The notes beneath the pieces are model-generated. The model was not told the origin of the DNA. It did no database searches and worked only from the letters and a program-made list of their open reading frames with translations. A program made the position numbers and the translations under genes. Of a stretch of DNA of 37,270 bases, positions 7,001 through 29,541 are shown in pieces. How positions within the stretch are numbered: position 1 is the stretch's first letter; each line of letters starts with the position of its first letter. The stretch comes from a virus. Taxonomy: Duplodnaviria > Caudoviricetes. The stretch spans positions 1 through 37,270 of IMG/VR virus record IMGVR_UViG_3300017766_001679; one strand, 5' to 3'.

Positions 7001-9980
7001 GTTAGTCCACGCCGCCATATCTCATGTGCTTCGCAATCCGGATATCAAACTGACCCAAGAGTTCACTAAGTTCTTTGAGACTTTGCAGAACCAGTTAGGC
7101 GCGGCATACGGTGGTCAGGATATCCAAGAGTTTGCCTCTGAGTTAGTCAGCAACCCCGAGTTCCAAGCCCTGCTAAAAGACATGAAGGCTCCCCGGAGCG
7201 GCAGTTGGTTTGATAAGTTTGTGCAGGCTATCGCTGAGTTCTTTGGGTTCCGCAAAGGGGAAACTGGCTACGATGCTGGCATGCGCTTTGTGATGAATGC
7301 CTTGGATATATCTGGCGATGTAGAGGCTCACCCCGCAGATAAGTTGTTCTTGGGCCTTGGCCCGTCGGTCACGTCCGGGTTCGGTACGGTTGGGAAGATT
7401 GGGCAAGCAATGCCAAGGCTCGCTGGGAATACCGTAGAAGCAACTAGAAACTACTTATCTAATGCACCCCGTGGGGCAACAAGCCTTGCAATGGGACTGC
7501 TTCGCCTTGACAACATCAATACCATCTACGGCAAAGAACTTCCGTCTATTCAGACCCTACTGGATGCACTTGAGAAACGTAATGGGAACCAAGAACAACG
7601 GATCAAGACGATCAACGACAACTATAAGCAGTTCATAAAGATTGCCAAGGCCAAGCCGCAGGCGATGGATCGTATGAACAAGATGGCGTATGAATCCCGT
7701 CTGCAACAGGTAGATCCACTAGGCCCTGCACCGACTGCGCCATCTCAGATTGCTGCCTATAACACCCTGAAAGCAAACTTTGACTCGTTGCCAAAAGACG
7801 TCCAAGGGGTGTACCGTACTATTCGTAATTCTTACGAAAGTGCCATCAACGAGTACGAGCAGATGCTTTTAAGTAGCGTCACTCCTTCGTTGGCTGCAAA
7901 ACTAAAACTGGAGTTCCAGACCCGCAAGCGTCAGGCCGCATACATTCCGTTCCTCCGTCGAGGCGAGTTTTGGGTAGAGTACACGGGTGAGGATGGCGAG
8001 CGTTGGGCTTCTGCCTTTGAGTCAGTACGGGAGCGCGAGCGGTTTGTAGGCCAAGAACTTAAGCGCCGTGGTATTACTGATGCCCGTCTGTACGAGAACA
8101 TCCAGAACGCTAGATTCCAGCAGGGCACAGTGCCTCCTACGTCCTTTATAGGGCGGGTCATGAACGACTTGACCCAGCAGGGGGCAAACCAACAGCAACT
8201 TGATAGCGTCTATCAGGCATACCTTGCCCTGTTCCCGGGACAGTCCATCTCTAAGAACTTTATGAAGGCCGACAATGTTCGGGGCATGGAGCAGGATATC
8301 GTCCGTGGGTATGGCGAGACTATGATTAAGTGGGCACGTCGCCTATCTAACTCCGAGTACACCCCACAGATTGACCGTGCTATACAAGGCATCGTGGCTG
8401 AATCAGAGCAAGCCAGCGACCCAAATGCTCGAGTAGCGGCTCAGAATATCGTTAATCAGCAACAGTTCTTGCATAACCCGACCTATGGAAGTCTAGTTAC
8501 TGCCGCTACGACCTTTAGTTACTTTAACTATATCGCGGGCAACATCTCATCGGCGCTGATTAACTTATCGACGCTACCCATGTTCTCCTACCCCATACTT
8601 GGGGCAAAGTTCGGGTTTGATAAAGCCGCGTCTGCAATGCTGTCTGCAAGTAAAACAGCAACCAATTACATCTTAAATAATAAGATTGATGGGCGGTACA
8701 AGGATCTCTTTGATGTTTTGAACGACCATGCGCAGTTATCTCACACGCTGGCAAGAGAGGTACTGGAAGGGCAACGTCAAACTACGGCAGAATTTACCGG
8801 ACTAAAAGCCAAAGTTATGGATGGACTATCCATCCCATTTGCGGCAACCGAGAAATTAAACCGTGGCGCTACGGCTATCGCTGCTTATGACTTGGCTATG
8901 TCTAGCGGAATGTCCAAAGATGCCGCCATTCAGTACGCCCTACGCACCGTAAAAGATATCAACACGTCTGGTTTATCGGCTACGGCCCCTAGTTGGATGC
9001 AACATCCGCTAGGCCGCGTGTTCTTCACGTTCAAATCGTTCGTGTGGAACAGTGCATTTATCATGGCTCGCTCGTTCCATCAAGCGTTTAAGGGCGAATC
9101 TCCAGCCGTAAGGCGTGAGGCACGTAGACAATTCCTTGGTATCTCCGGCATGGCGTTCACGTTGGCAGGGGCTAAAGGACTACCGTTTATGGGCGCGGCT
9201 TCGGTGCTGGCTGAAATGCTCCACACCTTGTTTGGAGATGATGACGAACCGTTTGACTTCCAGACCGAGATGCGTGAGTTCTTTGGGGACGCGATGTATA
9301 AGGGGGCAATTAACTACGCCCTGAATCTTGAGGTTGCCAACCGTATCGGTGTAGCCCAAGACCTTCTGTTCCGTGATGACCCTCGTGGTATAGCCGAAGA
9401 TGGTTACGTTTTGACTGCCATGAAGCAGGCGTTTGGTCCGGCAGGGTCTTACTTCTGGGGTGCAGAGCGTGGCATCCGGGCTATGGCTGAAGGTAATGTG
9501 ATGCGTGGAGTTGAGTCTCTGTTGCCAAGTTTCATACGTAACGGTTTGAAGGGTGGTCGGTACATGACCGAAGGGGCATTGACCCTGAAGGGCGATCCAA
9601 TTGATGAGGATATCAGTGCTTATAACTCGTTAATGCAAGTGCTTGGGTTCTCCCCGGCTGATCTATCTACCAAATATGAAGAGACTTCTGCCGCCAAAGG
9701 TTATGAGCGCGAGGTTATGGCACGCCGCAAACGGCTTCTAAACAAGTTTGACATGGCTAGAACCGCTGGGGATGTGGACTTGATGCAGGAAGTGCGGGGA
9801 GAAATCAACGAGTTTAACGCCTCCCGTACTGATCCCAAGGCTCGTATCGGTGTAGATACTTTACGCAAATCCGAAGCAGCCCGTCGCGCCGCCGAGCGCA
9901 ATATGATCAACGGGGTGAAGTTCAACAAGGGCCTGAAGTCTGAGATTGAGGCCAAGTTCTTTGAGGACGAAGAGGATTAA
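4086..9980 (+). CDS. Large polyvalent virion protein (zincin-like HExxH domain; PLxRFG/LPD-like C-terminal region)
   Basis: 1964 aa. AVHELVHAA...QEFASELVSNPEFQ (6996-7010 and downstream). YIPFLRRGEFWV at 7941 resembles the PLxRFG domain. The N-terminal EGLTEGAQE segment is typical of ejected virion proteins. Confidence 0.7.
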   Translation: MILDLPKIGSVRFDDNLTDEQFNAQLQALSQKYGFEVPRGQLTTGEMASRAFTRGRKQLGSVFGDIIPAMAGQALGFEDYAKQQLEEAAETQRELATTYEPQYRSLEDVKGISDAPGFALETIIEQIPNIATSLFPGMGAGVVAARTAATSLGKQLTLQAAERGLAGKAVQEFVEQGLKQAAPRIAAQAGVAQNAGIFLGSYAQNAPEVFQNIYEATGQMDVGTAMIFGSAAAALDSVLPATLARQLTGPVRVGVIEKVLEKSGMDRGLIRSTTAGLLKGVGGEGLTEGAQEAISISAERFVAENPQIFESKDWNRIMEASVRGAVAGGGFGGVGGGVQGLRQKAERGRQMAEAMERRGQRQEAARLRREVADAEAQIAEIEAGRTQMELPGLETGPYASMLPTERALKAAADAKNKLTGKQIEMFDAEGNLTTAVQKAANKDEKRAAIQAREQDKREATELRAAQDRLRKLVSGTQMTLPGMSAEEIKAAEAQQAAVQAQVAETGQGDLFAGMPPARAAEEAVAEPTVVERKEPIAPEQVSTKIDDTVLKSLGVGPTALLRKNKILDGRDITNPEDAAEVRRVLEAYAENRSAPIREKIEAYLNRPEFQAAEGVDRGERVTTEPIVGAGEPSVPSVGEPGGVLAPAGAAEQTVEAGVGTTGLPAVRPDLGEEGVERPLGKKAQADVRKTEEKAEVATKEQANFVSETDQNTSALLNTTLRDAMRAANLPDDAIDAEDFIGTEAHNMLRLPPLINRFLDLKETLAIPAEKTSQAKAQRAKNLQELNVLKKGIAKSSPEVADFLDGMSTLPTPDQRNQILSQFNKQGRESFAPVAAEKIAKAKAGMEAPAKAAPAKKEITDEELDDLANDFNARFMAKTGKRLFLPKFVGASFNEEQRALAQSGDLRGLVNNLAENTTNAGVRRVLKRIKGLNLKTTIRVGDVPEGKASFYDPRANEIVVSPDGLSEHAAVHELVHAAISHVLRNPDIKLTQEFTKFFETLQNQLGAAYGGQDIQEFASELVSNPEFQALLKDMKAPRSGSWFDKFVQAIAEFFGFRKGETGYDAGMRFVMNALDISGDVEAHPADKLFLGLGPSVTSGFGTVGKIGQAMPRLAGNTVEATRNYLSNAPRGATSLAMGLLRLDNINTIYGKELPSIQTLLDALEKRNGNQEQRIKTINDNYKQFIKIAKAKPQAMDRMNKMAYESRLQQVDPLGPAPTAPSQIAAYNTLKANFDSLPKDVQGVYRTIRNSYESAINEYEQMLLSSVTPSLAAKLKLEFQTRKRQAAYIPFLRRGEFWVEYTGEDGERWASAFESVRERERFVGQELKRRGITDARLYENIQNARFQQGTVPPTSFIGRVMNDLTQQGANQQQLDSVYQAYLALFPGQSISKNFMKADNVRGMEQDIVRGYGETMIKWARRLSNSEYTPQIDRAIQGIVAESEQASDPNARVAAQNIVNQQQFLHNPTYGSLVTAATTFSYFNYIAGNISSALINLSTLPMFSYPILGAKFGFDKAASAMLSASKTATNYILNNKIDGRYKDLFDVLNDHAQLSHTLAREVLEGQRQTTAEFTGLKAKVMDGLSIPFAATEKLNRGATAIAAYDLAMSSGMSKDAAIQYALRTVKDINTSGLSATAPSWMQHPLGRVFFTFKSFVWNSAFIMARSFHQAFKGESPAVRREARRQFLGISGMAFTLAGAKGLPFMGAASVLAEMLHTLFGDDDEPFDFQTEMREFFGDAMYKGAINYALNLEVANRIGVAQDLLFRDDPRGIAEDGYVLTAMKQAFGPAGSYFWGAERGIRAMAEGNVMRGVESLLPSFIRNGLKGGRYMTEGALTLKGDPIDEDISAYNSLMQVLGFSPADLSTKYEETSAAKGYEREVMARRKRLLNKFDMARTAGDVDLMQEVRGEINEFNASRTDPKARIGVDTLRKSEAARRAAERNMINGVKFNKGLKSEIEAKFFEDEED

Positions 9981-10006
9981 AAAAGACCCCCGGACTAGCC
10001 GGGGGT
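9979..10006 (-). terminator. Rho-independent terminator ending the minus-strand arm
   Basis: 8-bp stem ACCCCCGG/CCGGGGGT (9986-9993/9999-10006) with a 5-nt loop, followed by CUUUUUU on the minus strand. Sits at the convergent gene junction. Confidence 0.85.
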
Positions 10007-10040
10007 AGAGTTCTTCTCGAGGAGTGGAGAAGAAGAGTGC
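9979..10040 (-). ncRNA. Candidate trans-acting anti-RBS small RNA (~62 nt)
   Basis: Lies between a TATAAT promoter and the terminator. Predicted fold: 5'-GCACUC, stem UUCUUCUC/GAGAAGAA with loop CACUCCUC, then the terminator. Complementary to GAGTGC/AGGAGTG at several phage start codons. Confidence 0.55.
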
Positions 10041-10252
10041 GAAGGCATTATAGCCTCACTTCTCCAAACTCGTAAACCGTATTTCCCTTTCTCCACAACT
10101 TGTTTACAAATAATTTGGATTCCCAGCCTCCGTGCTTCGCCCTCAACAAACCGCTGGGTTAGCCGCCTGTCGATGCAAGGGACAAAGAACGAGGTTCCGG
10201 GCTTAAACTTCTCCCACTGGATCAGCAGTGGAAGATTCAGAATCTTTAGCAT
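9995..10252 (-). CDS. Small conserved phage protein (GxSFFVP...GLRVWR type)
   Basis: 85 aa. The FKPGTSFFVPC and GLRVWR motifs recur in small phage proteins. Overlaps the primase 3' end; the exact start is uncertain. Confidence 0.6.
   Translation of the reverse strand: MLKILNLPLLIQWEKFKPGTSFFVPCIDRRLTQRFVEGEARRLGIQIICKQVVEKGKYGLRVWRSEAIMPSHSSSPLLEKNSTPG
10047..10076 (-). promoter_or_regulatory. sigma70-type promoter for the candidate sRNA
   Basis: TTTACG-N18-TATAAT on the minus strand (perfect -10), embedded in the 3' part of ORF 9995-10252. Confidence 0.55.
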
Positions 10253-13073: not shown

Positions 13074-13165
13074 AGCCGTCCTTAACGCACCGTTCTAATA
13101 GGAGAGGATGGGCAGGGGTGCGACGGCGTACACCCTTTTCGATTGCGCAATCTAGCCCCCTCGAA
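13074..13165 (-). promoter_or_regulatory. Structured 5' leader RNA of primase (three-way junction with loop-RBS pseudoknot)
   Basis: Stems GAGG-GGGC/GCCC-AU-CCUC, GAUU/AAUC and GGGUGU/GCACCC. The loop GCCGUC is complementary to GACGGC in AAGGACGGCUAUG. Confidence 0.55.
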
Positions 13166-14307: not shown

Positions 14308-14691
14308 CTATCTTTTGGTTATTACTATGGTTTGATTTGCATCCGCGTTCAGCCCCGGCGGGTGCAAGTCGGGGTTTTCTTCAAGAAACTGATCCATGTT
14401 TGCGTTGTTGATACGTTGTTGCATTAACGCAAACGCATCGTGCTCCTTGATGAAGTTAAAAAAAGATTCCCAATCGTTAGTCCAGTAACGCCTAGAAATT
14501 CTTCGGGATATTGTTCCATGCTCAGTACGGATCGTAGCCGCACCTTGTTCTTTGCAGATCTCTAACAGAGCAGAAGAAACTTCGGCTAACTGCTCCTCTA
14601 GTTCTTTGTCTTGCTTCGCTAGTTCTCTACGCTTCTCACGAATTTTAACGTAAATTTTAGTGAGCCTTTCGGCATTTACTTCATTTGTCAT
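14308..14691 (-). CDS. Conserved phage replication-module protein (N-terminal coiled coil)
   Basis: ATG at 14691 with RBS AAGGAAG (alternative GTG at 14697). Coiled coil followed by IRTEHGT...DWESF. Confidence 0.7.
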   Translation of the reverse strand: MTNEVNAERLTKIYVKIREKRRELAKQDKELEEQLAEVSSALLEICKEQGAATIRTEHGTISRRISRRYWTNDWESFFNFIKEHDAFALMQQRINNANMDQFLEENPDLHPPGLNADANQTIVITKR

Positions 14692-14718
14692 TTGCACTCT
14701 TCCTTTTAGTTTTTTTAA

Positions 14719-14747
14719 ATACTAATCCCACTACTTTACTTTGTCAA
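14719..14747 (-). promoter_or_regulatory. sigma70-type promoter
   Basis: TTGACA-N17-TAGTAT upstream of the 14691 gene. Confidence 0.75.
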
Positions 14748-16291
14748 GTATCTTCCACAATATTTTTATAAAGATCAATTAACCGAGTATGTATATCAAC
14801 TTTTTCTGACAACATTTTATAGATACGCTTTTCAACGGGGCTGCCTTGGATATGTACAACGGTACATGGGTTGCGTTGCCCTGCACGATGCACGCGGGCG
14901 TTAGCCTGCAAGTAAGTCTCAATAGATGTTATAGGCCCCCACCAAACCACGACGTTGGCGGCATGTAGTGTGACACCGTGTGCGGCGGCTTGAGGCTGTA
15001 TGACAAGCACATGAGGGTTTTCCTCAGTTTGAAATTTCGCAAATATTTCTGTACGTTTCGTGGCGCTAATGCCCCCGTGGATTACTTCGCAACTAATTGA
15101 CTTGGCTTTTAGTTCTTCCGCGATGATCTCGATGGCGTGCCTAAAGGGTGCAAACACAATCACTTTATGGCTGGCTTCCTCAATGACCTCAAGCAATGCA
15201 TGCATGCGGCTCTTGGCATCAAAGGCTACGATCTCACCACTATCCGAGTACACCGCGCCACACGATAATTGCAGTAACTTGTTAAGGTTTGCCGCCGCAT
15301 TGACTGTGGTTATCTCTTCCCCCGCCGCGATAGCCATCATATTCTTGCGGATCGTTTCGTAGAACTTAATTTGTTGGCTAGTCAGGGGTACTTCTCGGGT
15401 CACGTAGGTCATGTCCGGTAAGTCTAGGCACTCCTCCTTGGTGAACCGGATCGCAGGTTGTAGCACGTCATGTAGTACCCGCTCAGACGATGGCTTGGGT
15501 AGCCACTTAAATTGGGTAATCTTTTGCATGACCATATCGCGGAACGCCCCAAAGAACTTGGGCACACCAGACGGATTGATGATCTTGGCTAGGCCGTAAG
15601 CATCTGTAGGGGACTGTGACGCCGGGGTTCCTGTCAACATCCAAACCCAAGTGTCCGCACGGATAATGCTTACCAGAGTTTTCCAACGCTTTGTGGAAAC
15701 ATTTTTATAGGCGTTAGCCTCGTCTACCACAATCAGATCAAACTTGGCTTCGTTGATTTCGTTTTTGACAATCTCCAAGCCATCGTAATTGATGATGACA
15801 AACTCAGCCTCACTCTTGATTGCCTTGATTCTGTTGTCTTTGCTGTAACTGTGGGCTATGGCGCATGAGCGGTGCATAGCAAACTTAAAAAGATCCGCTT
15901 CCCAAGCCGACTGCATGATGGATAGAGGGCAAAGCACAAGCACCCGCTTGATGGCGTTCTGCGTCATTAGGTAGTCTGCCGCCCAAATTACGGACGACGT
16001 TTTACCTGTGCCCTGCTCGTTAAAGCAGAAAGCCCTGCGGTGTAGGGTTAGAAACGATGCCGTGTCCCGTTGATGGGAGAACGGACGATATAGCCCGGGC
16101 CAGTCGTATGCCGCTTGGATGGGGGATGGCACGTTCTTGATGCGCAAATTCTTGAGCACCTGCGCTTCTTCCAACCCCCACTTGACTAGCACTTCGCCTG
16201 AATCAAGGATCTTGCTTTTCGGTATTACCGTGGTGATGCGGCTAGGTTCTCTGACCCTTAACAGCAACGCCTTGTTTTCAACTATTTGCAC
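14744..16291 (-). CDS. SNF2-family (SF2) helicase
   Basis: EQGTGKT, VLVLCP, IVVDEA, LTGTP, KLLQL, HGVTL, QANARVHRAGQ. Confidence 0.92.
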   Translation of the reverse strand: MQIVENKALLLRVREPSRITTVIPKSKILDSGEVLVKWGLEEAQVLKNLRIKNVPSPIQAAYDWPGLYRPFSHQRDTASFLTLHRRAFCFNEQGTGKTSSVIWAADYLMTQNAIKRVLVLCPLSIMQSAWEADLFKFAMHRSCAIAHSYSKDNRIKAIKSEAEFVIINYDGLEIVKNEINEAKFDLIVVDEANAYKNVSTKRWKTLVSIIRADTWVWMLTGTPASQSPTDAYGLAKIINPSGVPKFFGAFRDMVMQKITQFKWLPKPSSERVLHDVLQPAIRFTKEECLDLPDMTYVTREVPLTSQQIKFYETIRKNMMAIAAGEEITTVNAAANLNKLLQLSCGAVYSDSGEIVAFDAKSRMHALLEVIEEASHKVIVFAPFRHAIEIIAEELKAKSISCEVIHGGISATKRTEIFAKFQTEENPHVLVIQPQAAAHGVTLHAANVVVWWGPITSIETYLQANARVHRAGQRNPCTVVHIQGSPVEKRIYKMLSEKVDIHTRLIDLYKNIVEDT

Positions 16292-16312
16292 TCATCTCTC
16301 CATGACGCCGAT

Positions 16313-21545: not shown

Positions 21546-21839
21546 CTATCCCCTAATCCCTCTTGCTTCCCATAACACCTGACCCAATCGTTGCAATATC
21601 TCTTCCAATTGTTTTTTGTTTTCGTTGTACAGGCGCTCAGACAAATAGAAAAAGCAGGCGGCCTTCCCGTCATCGAAATCCATGTGTACAGAATCAAGTA
21701 ACTGACTGACCTCATCAAACCTGTATGACACCTCGTCAAGGTCATTGTTTATCTGCCATGCCCCATTAAGAAGTTTGTCTAAGTCCTCTGTCTTAACTAG
21801 GGCCATCGAGGAGGATTTCTTAGCGGCTTTTTTCTTCAT
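21546..21839 (-). CDS. Hypothetical protein
   Basis: 97 aa, strong RBS AAGGAG. Confidence 0.65.
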   Translation of the reverse strand: MKKKAAKKSSSMALVKTEDLDKLLNGAWQINNDLDEVSYRFDEVSQLLDSVHMDFDDGKAACFFYLSERLYNENKKQLEEILQRLGQVLWEARGIRG

Positions 21840-23258: not shown

Positions 23259-23550
23259 TTGCACTCTTTCTTGTTTGTTTAAGTTCATGGTACTCGTCAT
23301 ACGAAATGTAAATTATGATGCTCGTTGGGTTTAATTTTCTACCGATAGATTCTCCTATATCTGATTTATTAACATCTGTTAACTTAAGTAACGCCAGCCT
23401 CTCGGATACAAACAGCGGACACTCGGATATGTCAGGCAATGCAAACTTCTCGCTACTTGCGTTGTCGCACGCCACCATCCAATCCACATCACCGTTCTCG
23501 TGCAGATACACGATAACTACAAATCTTTGGTTCATTCTAATCCTCGTCAC
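23212..23550 (-). CDS. Hypothetical protein, apparent paralogue of the C-terminal domain of 23589-24395
   Basis: ISECPLFVSERLALLKL resembles MDSAPKNVQEQVAMLRM. Has its own promoter; start uncertain. Confidence 0.6.
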   Translation of the reverse strand: MTRIRMNQRFVVIVYLHENGDVDWMVACDNASSEKFALPDISECPLFVSERLALLKLTDVNKSDIGESIGRKLNPTSIIIYISYDEYHELKQTRKSANEKDNRKSRRTKRSI

Positions 23551-24395: not shown

Positions 24396-24405
24396 CGCAC
24401 TCTCC

Positions 24406-25239
24406 TTAGAACATTGATAAAATCTCATCGACCCGAGCCTTGGTATCCAACCGCAAGGCATCATCCTCACGCAGATCTTTAGGCGTGACCCCAACCAAGG
24501 CAGACTCCAACTTCTTACGGGCGGCTTCCAACTTGGTGTCGTTCGTGACGTTCAACTTAGTCAGCAGGTCACACATATCCACCGCGTTGTTGACCAACGA
24601 ATCACGGAAGATCTGCTTTTCCTCACCCGCCAACTTGCCGCTCATCTTCGATAGACATTCGTGGAGCCGGTCCCAGACGTCCTTAGTGGCTTCTGTTAAC
24701 TTGTTTTGGTAAAACGATTCATATTGAGCCACCAACTCCTCTTTATGTTGCTCGTTTACGTCAATCCGGAAGTCCCCTACATCCGGCACAGGTAGGAACA
24801 CATACCGGAACTTGAACTTGTTGATCAACTGATCGACATCGGGGTACTCCTCGGCATCGAACAGGTCACCCAACTGAAACGCCGCCGCACTAACTAATGT
24901 CGGGTACTCCCGCAAGAACTCCTTGACCGCATCGTTGAACTGCTGTTCGTAGTCAGAGAGCGTAGCCTTGTAGTCAAAGAAGTTTTTCATAGGTAACAGC
25001 CTAGAACCCCCGTCACTCCACGGTAGCGTCTGCTCGTAGTGCCATGTCCGTATCATGCCAACAAGTTTCTGCACCTGCTCCAACTTATCGGTTCCTGCCA
25101 AAAGTTTTTTATGGTAGTTACCCGCCTTGGTCTTGGTACTCTTAGCGGCATCAATCTCCTCGGACACCTTCTTATCTTGCTTGCGACCTGTCCATACGCT
25201 TATGTTCAAGTCGGCTAACATCGAACTGTTCTGAATCAT
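24406..25239 (-). CDS. DUF3150-like helical protein
   Basis: LNISVWTGRKQDK...KKLL...TLPW...RLLP...YP....F.F pattern. ATG at 25239 with RBS AAGGAG. Lies downstream of the AAA and VWA genes. Family call is from memory. Confidence 0.6.
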   Translation of the reverse strand: MIQNSSMLADLNISVWTGRKQDKKVSEEIDAAKSTKTKAGNYHKKLLAGTDKLEQVQKLVGMIRTWHYEQTLPWSDGGSRLLPMKNFFDYKATLSDYEQQFNDAVKEFLREYPTLVSAAAFQLGDLFDAEEYPDVDQLINKFKFRYVFLPVPDVGDFRIDVNEQHKEELVAQYESFYQNKLTEATKDVWDRLHECLSKMSGKLAGEEKQIFRDSLVNNAVDMCDLLTKLNVTNDTKLEAARKKLESALVGVTPKDLREDDALRLDTKARVDEILSMF

Positions 25240-25439
25240 TTGCACTCTCCTTGGTTAAGTAATATGCACATCGCGTGCGCTTCGTCCTCGTTAAAGTCGT
25301 AGTAAATCTTGTCGTAGTGCATCACCCTGTTGTAATGCTCTACTTGCCACACCATAACTTCTTTCAAAGTGTTCCACCCTCCTTGCCAGTTAGTAAGTTT
25401 CTTTCGACCAACCACACACCAATCTTTGATCGCACTCAT
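25236..25439 (-). CDS. Hypothetical protein
   Basis: 67 aa, ATGA-coupled at both ends. Confidence 0.6.
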   Translation of the reverse strand: MSAIKDWCVVGRKKLTNWQGGWNTLKEVMVWQVEHYNRVMHYDKIYYDFNEDEAHAMCILLNQGECK

Positions 25440-28503: not shown

Positions 28504-29541
28504 TCAAACTATGTTATGGATAGCGCCATCCGTCACCTCGACTTCCTCGAGTTTGTGTACCTCACACGCCTTGATGGACATGGCGTACACCATCCGTTTT
28601 AGCGTCTCGAACTCGAACCTGTAGTCGTAGTACTCAATCTTCCTATCACCATGAACCTCTACCGTTGCGAGCCTCTTCGCCTCATACTTACCCCGATGAC
28701 TGAGCAGGAAGCACATCGCCCCCAAATACTTATCCTCGGGACAACTGCTCAGGTATGCGTACATCGCCTTCGGCTCTGCCTGTCCGTAGTACGGGTTCGC
28801 AATAATCCCATCGGGTAGCCCATAGTCGTACATCACACTAGACCACCTGTCCACCACCAAGCCCCCAACTTGTTTGCGTGTCTCGTGCATGATCCACCCG
28901 TCTGACATGGCTAGAAATGTCTTGGCGAAATTCAAAAACGGTTGGAGCGGCTCCCTCGCCCCCTTGGTCTTAGAGCGGTCAATGAGTTTCTTCATCACCA
29001 TGACCTTCTCGACGGGTTGCCATGCGCCATTGACACGGTGGAACTTAATCTCGCCTTGGTTCGGCACGGGGTAATCTGTCCTGCCAACTTCCCCACCACC
29101 CACAACTAGCCACAACTTGCTGTACTTCTTGTAGCACTTAAACGGGCTATGGATATGAATAAACTCGGCGGTTGTCGGGGTAGGCCATGAGTCACACTTA
29201 ATCCCGACTACTCCGTTTGGGTAATACACCACAACTTGTGTACGGTAGAGTTTGCAGGCGATGGCGCCATCCTCGTTTTGTTCGATCAACTCCCAGTCCC
29301 GGCTCCGCTTACCGATGGGTCTGACTGGCTCGGCTCTCCCCCGAATGGGCTTGATGGAGTCGTACATGTTCTTATAATACTCATACAGGTTTGCACTCAT
29401 TTTGAACTCTCTTTCGTCTAATGTTTGTTGCACCGCGTCCAACGCGAGGGTGTTGTATTCCTTTGTACTTATTGCCGCTTTTAACTGATCGTCCGGCGTG
29501 AACTTAAAGTATCTCCACATGAACTTGACCGTCAGTTTCAT
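28504..29541 (-). CDS. Hypothetical early protein
   Basis: 345-aa ORF. An alternative in-frame start at 29400 (MSANLYEYY) has a GAGAG RBS. Confidence 0.75.
   Translation of the reverse strand: MKLTVKFMWRYFKFTPDDQLKAAISTKEYNTLALDAVQQTLDEREFKMSANLYEYYKNMYDSIKPIRGRAEPVRPIGKRSRDWELIEQNEDGAIACKLYRTQVVVYYPNGVVGIKCDSWPTPTTAEFIHIHSPFKCYKKYSKLWLVVGGGEVGRTDYPVPNQGEIKFHRVNGAWQPVEKVMVMKKLIDRSKTKGAREPLQPFLNFAKTFLAMSDGWIMHETRKQVGGLVVDRWSSVMYDYGLPDGIIANPYYGQAEPKAMYAYLSSCPEDKYLGAMCFLLSHRGKYEAKRLATVEVHGDRKIEYYDYRFEFETLKRMVYAMSIKACEVHKLEEVEVTDGAIHNIV

What the first reader, a model, noticed from the sequence alone, without database searches (positions are those of the whole stretch)
9979..10076. Candidate phage-encoded multi-target sRNA that could silence the phage's own early genes at their ribosome-binding sites
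Seen: inside the 3' end of the last minus-strand ORF is TTTACG-N18-TATAAT (10076-10047). A start 7 nt downstream (G10040) gives 5'-GCACUC-UUCUUCUC-[CACUCCUC]-GAGAAGAA-CUCU-terminator-U6. That is an exposed 5' seed, an 8-bp hairpin with an anti-Shine-Dalgarno loop, and an intrinsic terminator. The seed complement GAGTGC lies at or next to seven minus-strand starts (14691, 16291, 23258, 24395, 25239, 25439 and the alternative start 29400). At 14691, AGGAAGAGUGC can form 11 contiguous pairs (one G-U). The loop CACUCCU matches AGGAGUG at the SSB-like gene RBS (14298), and UUCUUCUCC matches GGAGAAGAA at 21839. Known: 5'-seed and CU-rich-loop sRNAs repress translation by RBS pairing, and P1 C4 / P4 CI RNAs give RNA-based phage immunity. 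Inference: an RNA-based early-gene shut-off or immunity circuit encoded at the end of the replication operon. It could also hit host mRNAs.
Basis: partly seen in the sequence, partly recalled or inferred. Interest (0 to 1): 0.92.

Follow-up and report, generated by a model that had tools for sequence, protein, structure and literature searches.

The report
Phage sRNA targeting its own genes
A large family of uncultured phages keeps a predicted 60-base RNA gene whose front end changes in step with the ribosome-binding sites of the phage's own early and replication genes, so it likely switches their translation off together.

Summary
The element lies at the 3' end of the replication operon of an uncultured ~62-kb phage family with no cultured member. 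Across 41 sequence clusters of relatives the -10 box (38 of 41), a C/U-rich stretch and the terminator persist regardless of reading frame. The key result is covariation: each phage's RNA pairs better with its own start region of the DUF7307 gene (window 14691) and the helicase than with relatives' (permutation p at or near 5e-5, repeated on a second set of loci; four control genes null). GAGTGC marks 27 of 217 early starts in GCACUC-seed genomes, 0 of 109 late starts, 0 of 338 early starts in other-seed genomes. A tree-aware test is weaker (p 0.02 by energy, not significant by match length). Best reading: a trans-acting antisense sRNA that represses the phage's own early and replication genes. 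No transcript or repression is shown. The loop sites are weak, immunity is unsupported, and the host is unknown. No Rfam family is met. This scan noted the same idea before on other DNA (two look-alike genomes, eight word matches; unchecked notes).

The parts
10047..10076 (-). Predicted sigma70-type promoter of the sRNA, inside the G-L-R-V-W-R codons of the 85-aa gene (-35 TTTACG 10076-10071, -10 TATAAT 10052-10047)
   Evidence: TAnnnT at the same offset in 38 of 41 clusters (shuffles mean 3.2, max 10); Leu codon TTR in 37 of 39 versus 42% background; ORF stops at or before the -10 in 30 of 41
9979..10040 (-). Predicted 62-nt sRNA
   Evidence: seed G lies 6 nt after the -10 in 37 of 47 seed-type sequences; no transcript seen
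10035..10040 (-). 5' seed GCACUC, predicted single-stranded
   Evidence: unpaired probability 1.0; above 0.7 in 38 of 46 seed-type RNAs
10011..10034 (-). Hairpin 1; its 5' arm holds the C/U-rich bases that continue the seed into the SD
   Evidence: z below -1.5 against shuffles in 10 of 14 seed-type clusters, median -3.5; loop has an anti-SD word in 7 of 14
9979..10006 (-). Intrinsic terminator shared with the replication operon; one-directional
   Evidence: no U-tract on the opposite strand in 41 of 41 clusters
9995..10252 (-). 85-aa gene of no known family that carries the promoter; conserved core ends at GLRVWR, tail varies
14692..14704 (-). Main predicted target site, between SD and ATG of the DUF7307 (Gam/Gp157-like) gene 14308-14691, first gene of the replication operon
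   Evidence: 11 pairs, -18.1 kcal/mol; covariation; Pfam
14719..14747 (-). Promoter of the replication operon (TTGACA-17-TAGTAT); the short leader is essentially the target site
   Evidence: a 9/12 or better promoter within 100 nt in 32 of 38 clusters versus 1 of 36 for SSB and 0 of 35 for primase
16288..16300 (-). Predicted target site over the GTG start of the SNF2 helicase (16291)
23259..23271 (-). Predicted target site before the winged-HTH gene (start 23258)
24396..24407 (-). Predicted target site before the 268-aa early gene (start 24395)
25240..25252 (-). Predicted target site before the DUF3150-like gene (start 25239)
25432..25437 (-). Uncertain site: GAGTGC in the first codons of a 67-aa ORF (25439)
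29393..29398 (-). Uncertain site: GAGTGC at the alternative start 29400
   Evidence: homologues begin about here

Best explanation
A predicted 62-nt small RNA, likely made from its own promoter inside the last gene of the replication operon, carries a 5' seed complementary to a private tag next to the start codons of several of the phage's early and replication genes, and likely represses their translation in trans by covering the ribosome-binding site. Shown by sequence comparison: conserved promoter-like, seed and terminator elements; complementarity; seed and tag change together between lineages; late genes lack the tag. Inferred: the free seed nucleates on the tag, the stem then opens so the hidden C/U-rich bases cover the SD, which would confine action to tagged mRNAs. 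Inferred: the stable RNA accumulates as genomes replicate and acts as a timer or negative feedback that turns early translation down and leaves late mRNAs free. The most constant target is the first gene of the operon at whose end the RNA lies.
For: Promoter and terminator conserved independent of frame. Own versus foreign pairing for the DUF7307 start: first set 25 clusters p 5e-5; second set 19 clusters p 5e-5; pooled 38 clusters z 6.6 (energy) and 9.1 (match length); still significant among the 25 clusters without the GCACUC seed. Helicase: 14, 17 and 25 clusters, p 0.002, 0.0008 and 5e-5 by energy. Exonuclease, primase, HNH and polymerase starts null in the pooled set. Seed yes/no against tag yes/no at DUF7307: 10/3 versus 1/24. 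Compensatory examples: L022, L041, L043, L166 versus L177, L182, and perfect 12-16-nt matches with unrelated seeds in L054, L055, L069, L185. In the L142 group the tag has moved across the start codon and the RNA spacer has lengthened to match. Tag in 27 of 217 early starts of 7 seed genomes, 0 of 109 late, 0 of 338 early starts of 11 other-seed genomes. Upstream of the helicase alone: 12 of 172 versus 0 of 251, own versus foreign p 0.0007 in 16 genomes. In the window the five best starts for the 5' 14 nt are all tag sites; all 9 late starts are weaker.
Against: No transcript or repression is shown. Tree-aware test on 31 disjoint pairs: own better 18, worse 7, tied 6 by energy (p 0.02), but 11/6/14 by match length (p 0.17); helicase 14/6 (p 0.06) and 9/2 (p 0.03). 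Within the GCACUC clade the DUF7307 signal is marginal (13 clusters, p 0.045 and 0.18). Fisher counts overstate significance because genomes share ancestry. G-U versus A-C asymmetry, a test of which strand pairs, was inconclusive (10 versus 12; seed-anchored 20 versus 12). With unfolding costs four untagged starts score like tagged ones. Some lineages match DUF7307 poorly (L057 group, L059, L061), and the element looks absent in L062-L064 and L160. The late-gene null rests on 6 genomes (p 0.09 by energy). Starts come from my own simple gene caller. Timing is pure inference: RNA and targets both have sigma70-type promoters.
Confidence: 0.72

Rival explanations
1. The pairing works on the parent operon only: the 3' end of the 4.7-kb replication mRNA, or a piece processed from it, pairs with the operon's own 5' leader (autoregulation like OppZ).
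For: The most constant target is the first gene of this very operon, with its own conserved promoter; the terminator is shared.
Against: A separate -10 is conserved just before the seed. Tags and own-pairing extend to the helicase and to genes upstream of it, outside that operon.
Confidence: 0.1
2. The RNA is an exclusion or carrier-state device: a resident phage silences the early genes of an incoming relative with the same tag, and seed-tag pairs diverge like immunity groups.
For: Seeds and tags differ strongly between lineages while staying matched; P1 C4 is an RNA of an immunity region (PMC8201110, passages).
Against: No integrase, serine recombinase or ParA in 5 of 5 complete relatives; only 3 short MAG contigs among bacterial genomes. 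Drift under self-regulation would give the same divergence.
Confidence: 0.08
3. The shared motif is a protein-binding site or a plus-strand decoy: the late transcript reading through here would carry a sense copy of the tag, for a translational repressor.
For: No plus-strand U-tract at the hairpin in 41 of 41 clusters; wobble asymmetry inconclusive.
Against: Promoter and terminator bound the element on the minus strand; the seed starts at the predicted +1 in 37 of 47; wholesale seed and tag replacement is easier for base pairing than for a protein.
Confidence: 0.05
4. It is only the operon's terminator and 3' UTR; matches come from SD composition and shared ancestry.
For: Single-locus promoter match is at chance level; tree-aware test modest.
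Against: Gene-specific covariation with null control genes of the same genomes; 0 of 338 tags in other-seed genomes with ordinary SDs; frame-independent -10 conservation.
Confidence: 0.03
5. The main targets are host mRNAs (anti-SD host shut-off, like Burkholderia toxic sRNAs).
For: Sub-threshold likeness to RF02278 (26.3 bits, cut-off 50).
Against: The seed tracks phage sites lineage by lineage, and the anti-SD part is predicted to be folded away. Host unknown, so untested.
Confidence: 0.02

Closest known systems
sRNAs with ORF-embedded promoters at mRNA 3' ends (DapZ, MicL, MicX; PMC9438474, passages seen)
   Same: Promoter inside the upstream coding sequence near its stop, terminator shared with the mRNA, short seed pairing in trans.
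   Different: Those are chromosomal, shown by experiment, and act on cell genes. This one is in a phage, is predicted only, and matches the phage's own starts.
OppZ of Vibrio cholerae (PMC9438474, passages seen)
   Same: RNA from the 3' end of an operon that pairs with its own operon mRNA.
   Different: OppZ is cut out by RNase E and has one self target; here an own promoter and several targets outside the operon are predicted.
C4 antisense RNA of phages P1/P7 (RF01695; PMC8201110, passages seen; mechanism otherwise recalled)
   Same: Phage RNA that silences phage genes by short antisense pairing.
   Different: No Rfam C4 match. C4 controls antirepressor expression in a temperate phage; here many dispersed starts, 5' seed, no sign of lysogeny.
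Betaproteobacteria toxic sRNA (RF02278) and anti-hemB (RF02837)
   Same: About 60 nt, C/U-rich 5' part, hairpin, terminator; best Rfam likeness.
   Different: 26.3 and 23 bits against cut-offs 50 and 49.5; chromosomal in Burkholderia with unknown function there (PMC4603805, passages seen); the seed here is lineage-specific.
Phage-encoded Hfq sRNAs VpdS (VP882) and PreS (lambda) (PMC12197685 and 10.1101/2024.10.31.621285, passages seen)
   Same: Trans-acting, multi-target phage sRNAs.
   Different: Temperate phages, mostly host targets; no co-evolving private tag on the phage's own starts appears in the passages I saw.

Membership tests
RF02278 Betaproteobacteria toxic sRNA | Covariance-model score at or above 50 bits | tested here: not met
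   26.3 bits, E 0.0011; no hit in 9 related loci
RF02278 Betaproteobacteria toxic sRNA | About 60 nt, C/U-rich 5' region, intrinsic terminator | tested here: met
RF02278 Betaproteobacteria toxic sRNA | Chromosomal locus in Betaproteobacteria | tested here: not met
   phage locus; only 3 short MAG contigs in bacterial genomes
RF02278 Betaproteobacteria toxic sRNA | Toxic when cloned in E. coli | not testable with these tools
   feature taken from PMC4603805 passage
C4 antisense RNA (RF01695) | Rfam C4 match | tested here: not met
   not among 0 gathering hits or 16 E-value hits
C4 antisense RNA (RF01695) | Controls antirepressor expression in the immunity region of a temperate phage | tested here: not met
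   predicted targets are replication and early genes; no integrase, recombinase or ParA in 5 of 5 complete relatives
ORF-embedded-promoter 3'-end sRNAs (DapZ/MicL class) | Conserved promoter inside the upstream CDS and shared terminator | tested here: met
   (by conservation, not by mapping)
ORF-embedded-promoter 3'-end sRNAs (DapZ/MicL class) | Primary transcript with 5' triphosphate detected | not testable with these tools
   no RNA holder listed
ORF-embedded-promoter 3'-end sRNAs (DapZ/MicL class) | Regulates other mRNAs by seed pairing | tested here: inconclusive
   covariation supports pairing; regulation not measured
Hfq-dependent phage sRNAs (VpdS, PreS) | Hfq binding | not testable with these tools
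   U-tail terminator is compatible; host unknown

The most novel reading that the evidence does not exclude
An apparently virulent phage family runs its early-to-late switch with RNA alone: one small RNA reads a private, fast-evolving tag written into the ribosome-binding sites of a whole set of its own genes, by a toehold that unmasks a hidden anti-SD. The seed-tag code differs by lineage and may also shut out co-infecting kin. A second antisense-like RNA (int-alpA) guards the primase start in the same operon.
Probability: 0.35. Interest if true: 0.88.

Novelty: new variant of a known kind. Interest (0 to 1): 0.76.

Why it matters
Phage developmental switches are mostly explained by transcription factors, sigma factors or nucleases, and few phage sRNAs are characterised. 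A self-directed sRNA regulon with a co-evolving address tag, in a family with on the order of a thousand stored viral stretches, would add a post-transcriptional timer to lytic development. The natural seed-tag pairs make it directly testable in E. coli reporters and offer orthogonal translational repressors. It also gives a likely role to int-alpA, an Rfam motif found here next to a complementary primase RBS.

Tried and rejected
Expression: no RNA holder listed; three same-study RNA-labelled runs laid no contig on 9700-10500. This is no evidence either way. Rfam: no family at cut-off for the element. Cultured model: the 85-aa gene has no match in 50,697 phage records; distant kin with similar gene order (Pseudomonas phage Rollin, Rhizobium phage RHph_TM3_14A, Xanthomonas phage Xp15) show no such element at the junction by inspection. 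Host: 3 short MAG contigs with conflicting taxa, probably mis-binned; no WhiB in 5 of 5; distant kin infect Proteobacteria. Not resolved. Peptide reading of the tail: rejected, stop position and frame vary. Wobble asymmetry test inconclusive. The energy line held an overflow artefact and was redone. Loop pairing to the SSB start: weak (-8.2 kcal/mol net); SSB covariation modest (pooled p 0.003 and 0.008, not significant at the 60% clustering). Literature: searches listed no paper on this element (listings and abstract starts only). Four seed motifs were not found in the readable supplements of PMC10690425, but its two zip files and three oversized files could not be searched, so the RNA may be there as an anonymous candidate. 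The Kimelman 2012 paper was not held. IntaRNA and Prodigal were not available; RNAduplex/cofold and a simple gene caller were used.
Full report
Setting. The window is part of a tailed-phage genome: terminase, portal, ejection and DarB-like proteins on the plus strand; ATPase, DUF2201, PolA, exonuclease, SNF2 helicase, a DUF7307 (Gam/Gp157-like) gene, an SSB-like gene, an HTH and a DUF927 primase on the minus strand. The two arms converge at about 9980. Complete relatives are 62-67 kb. Five of five lack tyrosine integrase, serine recombinase, ParA and WhiB, so the family is probably virulent. The host is not known.

Observation. All stated features are present. The predicted RNA runs 10040-9979, 62 nt. 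Six of 13 minus-strand GAGTGC sites lie at curated starts (p 7e-7). The promoter match alone is at chance level.

Relatives. The 85-aa ORF is a real gene family. I examined 135 loci: 80 of 314, 52 further ones among the 80 of 545 shown, and 3. After removing duplicates and loci with no terminator in view, 86 distinct sequences including the window remained, in 41 clusters at 70% identity. Dropped: contig ends (L021, L045, L066, L154, L170, L183), terminators my pattern missed (L138, L146), and loci where the element looks absent (L062-L064, L160). A TAnnnT box sits at the same offset in 38 of 41 clusters (shuffles mean 3.2, max 10), and the Leu codon that forms the -35 is TTR in 37 of 39 against 42% elsewhere. 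The ORF stops at or before the -10 in 30 of 41, so the constraint is on the nucleic acid. The seed G follows the -10 by 6 nt in 37 of 47 seed-type sequences.

Covariation. For each gene I scored every RNA against every start region, centred the matrix and permuted. For the DUF7307 start own pairing beats foreign pairing in the first set (25 clusters, p 5e-5), in the second set (19 clusters, p 5e-5) and pooled (38 clusters, z 6.6 and 9.1). The second set is the same family, not an independent lineage. The helicase behaves alike. SSB is modest; exonuclease, primase, HNH and polymerase are null in the pooled set, HTH p 0.08. These genes share genome composition with the targets, so composition does not explain the result. 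Single cases are clear: L022, L041 and L043 change seed and site together; L166 and L177 differ by one matched change; L054, L055, L069 and L185 have unrelated seeds with perfect 12-16-nt matches; in the L142 group the tag lies across the start codon and the RNA spacer has lengthened. Against this, a test on 31 disjoint pairs of a quick tree (77 of 86 rows) gave 18 better, 7 worse, 6 tied by energy (p 0.02) and 11/6/14 by match length (p 0.17); close pairs mostly share their seed. Some lineages match poorly. The wobble test for strand was inconclusive.

Many targets, early only. In 18 longer genomes, GAGTGC lies at 27 of 217 early starts of the 7 seed genomes, 0 of their 109 late starts, 0 of 338 early and 1 of 139 late starts of the 11 others; shared ancestry inflates any p value here. 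Leaving out the helicase and everything downstream, the counts are 12 of 172 and 0 of 251, and own pairing still wins (16 genomes, p 0.0007 by energy). Late starts show no effect in 6 genomes (p 0.09 to 0.75), with low power. In the window the five best starts for the 5' 14 nt are 14691, 25239, 24395, 16291 and 23258 (-18.1 to -14.5 kcal/mol); the 9 late starts reach at best -11.0. With unfolding costs the seven tag sites score -10.1 to -13.6 and late starts at best -7.2, but four untagged early starts score alike, partly through the terminator arm.

Anatomy and mechanism. The seed is predicted free in 38 of 46 seed-type RNAs. The hairpin behind it is more stable than shuffles in 10 of 14 clusters, while an anti-SD word in its loop occurs in 7 of 14. 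So the constant design in this clade is a free seed followed by a stem that hides the bases facing the SD. I infer toehold pairing and stem opening, which would spare untagged mRNAs. In the distant clade the matching stretch lies inside the RNA before the terminator, so the fold is not universal. The DUF7307 gene has its own conserved promoter (32 of 38 clusters): the operon begins with the main target and ends with the RNA. That fits negative feedback, and also keeps the cis or parent-only rival alive. All duplexes cover the SD, spacer or start codon, so repression is the expected sign (established sRNA mechanism, from my own knowledge). Timing is inferred only. Because the terminator has no plus-strand U-tract, late transcripts could read through as antisense to the RNA; untested.

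Known systems. No Rfam family is met; the best are RF02278 (26.3 of 50 bits) and RF02837 (23 of 49.5). It is built like ORF-embedded-promoter sRNAs such as DapZ and MicL, recalls OppZ in aiming at its own operon (PMC9438474, passages), and works like P1 C4 in silencing phage genes by antisense (PMC8201110, passages), without being a member. VpdS and PreS are the nearest phage trans-acting sRNAs (passages). Searches listed no description of this element; unread supplement files of PMC10690425 may hold it. Earlier notes of this scan describe the same idea in two genomes that share words with the 85-aa protein and in eight others found by words; they are unchecked, were seen after my tests, and are not counted as support.

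Verdict. Real and conserved feature; predicted trans-acting antisense sRNA against the phage's own early and replication starts (0.72). New variant of a known kind. Interest 0.76. Expression and repression remain to be shown.

Noticed in passing
window 13090-13162 (-), just upstream of the primase start 13073: An int-alpA RNA (RF02996, 40.7 bits, cut-off 35.8) that the whole-window scan missed. Its loop GCCGUC (13127) is complementary to GACGGC at the primase RBS (13080). Element, loop word and downstream complement occur together in 24 of 35 clusters; L185 has a changed loop with a matching changed site by eye. Likely a second, cis antisense control in the same operon.
   Followed up: partly
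window 28483-28455 (-) and starts 29541, 26775, 25439, about 28406: A perfect TTGACA-17-TATAAT promoter with TG, and a second repeated RBS motif aacagg(t/a)gttaataaATG before several early genes, without the GAGTGC tag upstream of the ATG.
   Followed up: no
L142, L143, L144, L145, L155, L163, L165, L175: DUF7307 start: The seed site lies over the start codon and first codons (Met-Ser-Ala), so the N-terminal sequence may be shaped by RNA pairing.
   Followed up: partly
window 9986-10006 (+): The late operon's last stop codon abuts the terminator, which has no plus-strand U-tract in 41 of 41 clusters; late read-through would be antisense to the sRNA.
   Followed up: no
L062-L064 and L160, downstream of the GLRVWR gene: The promoter-seed-terminator element looks lost; the opposite-strand gene follows directly. 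Natural negatives for a test of tag decay.
   Followed up: no
L187 19752-22835 (Rhizobium phage RHph_TM3_14A): The gene annotated 'putative integrase' is the homologue of the window's DUF927 primase; probably mis-annotated.
   Followed up: no
window 29400 versus 29541 (-): Homologues of the 345-aa gene begin about 30-45 residues later, near the ATG at 29400; the true start is uncertain.
   Followed up: partly
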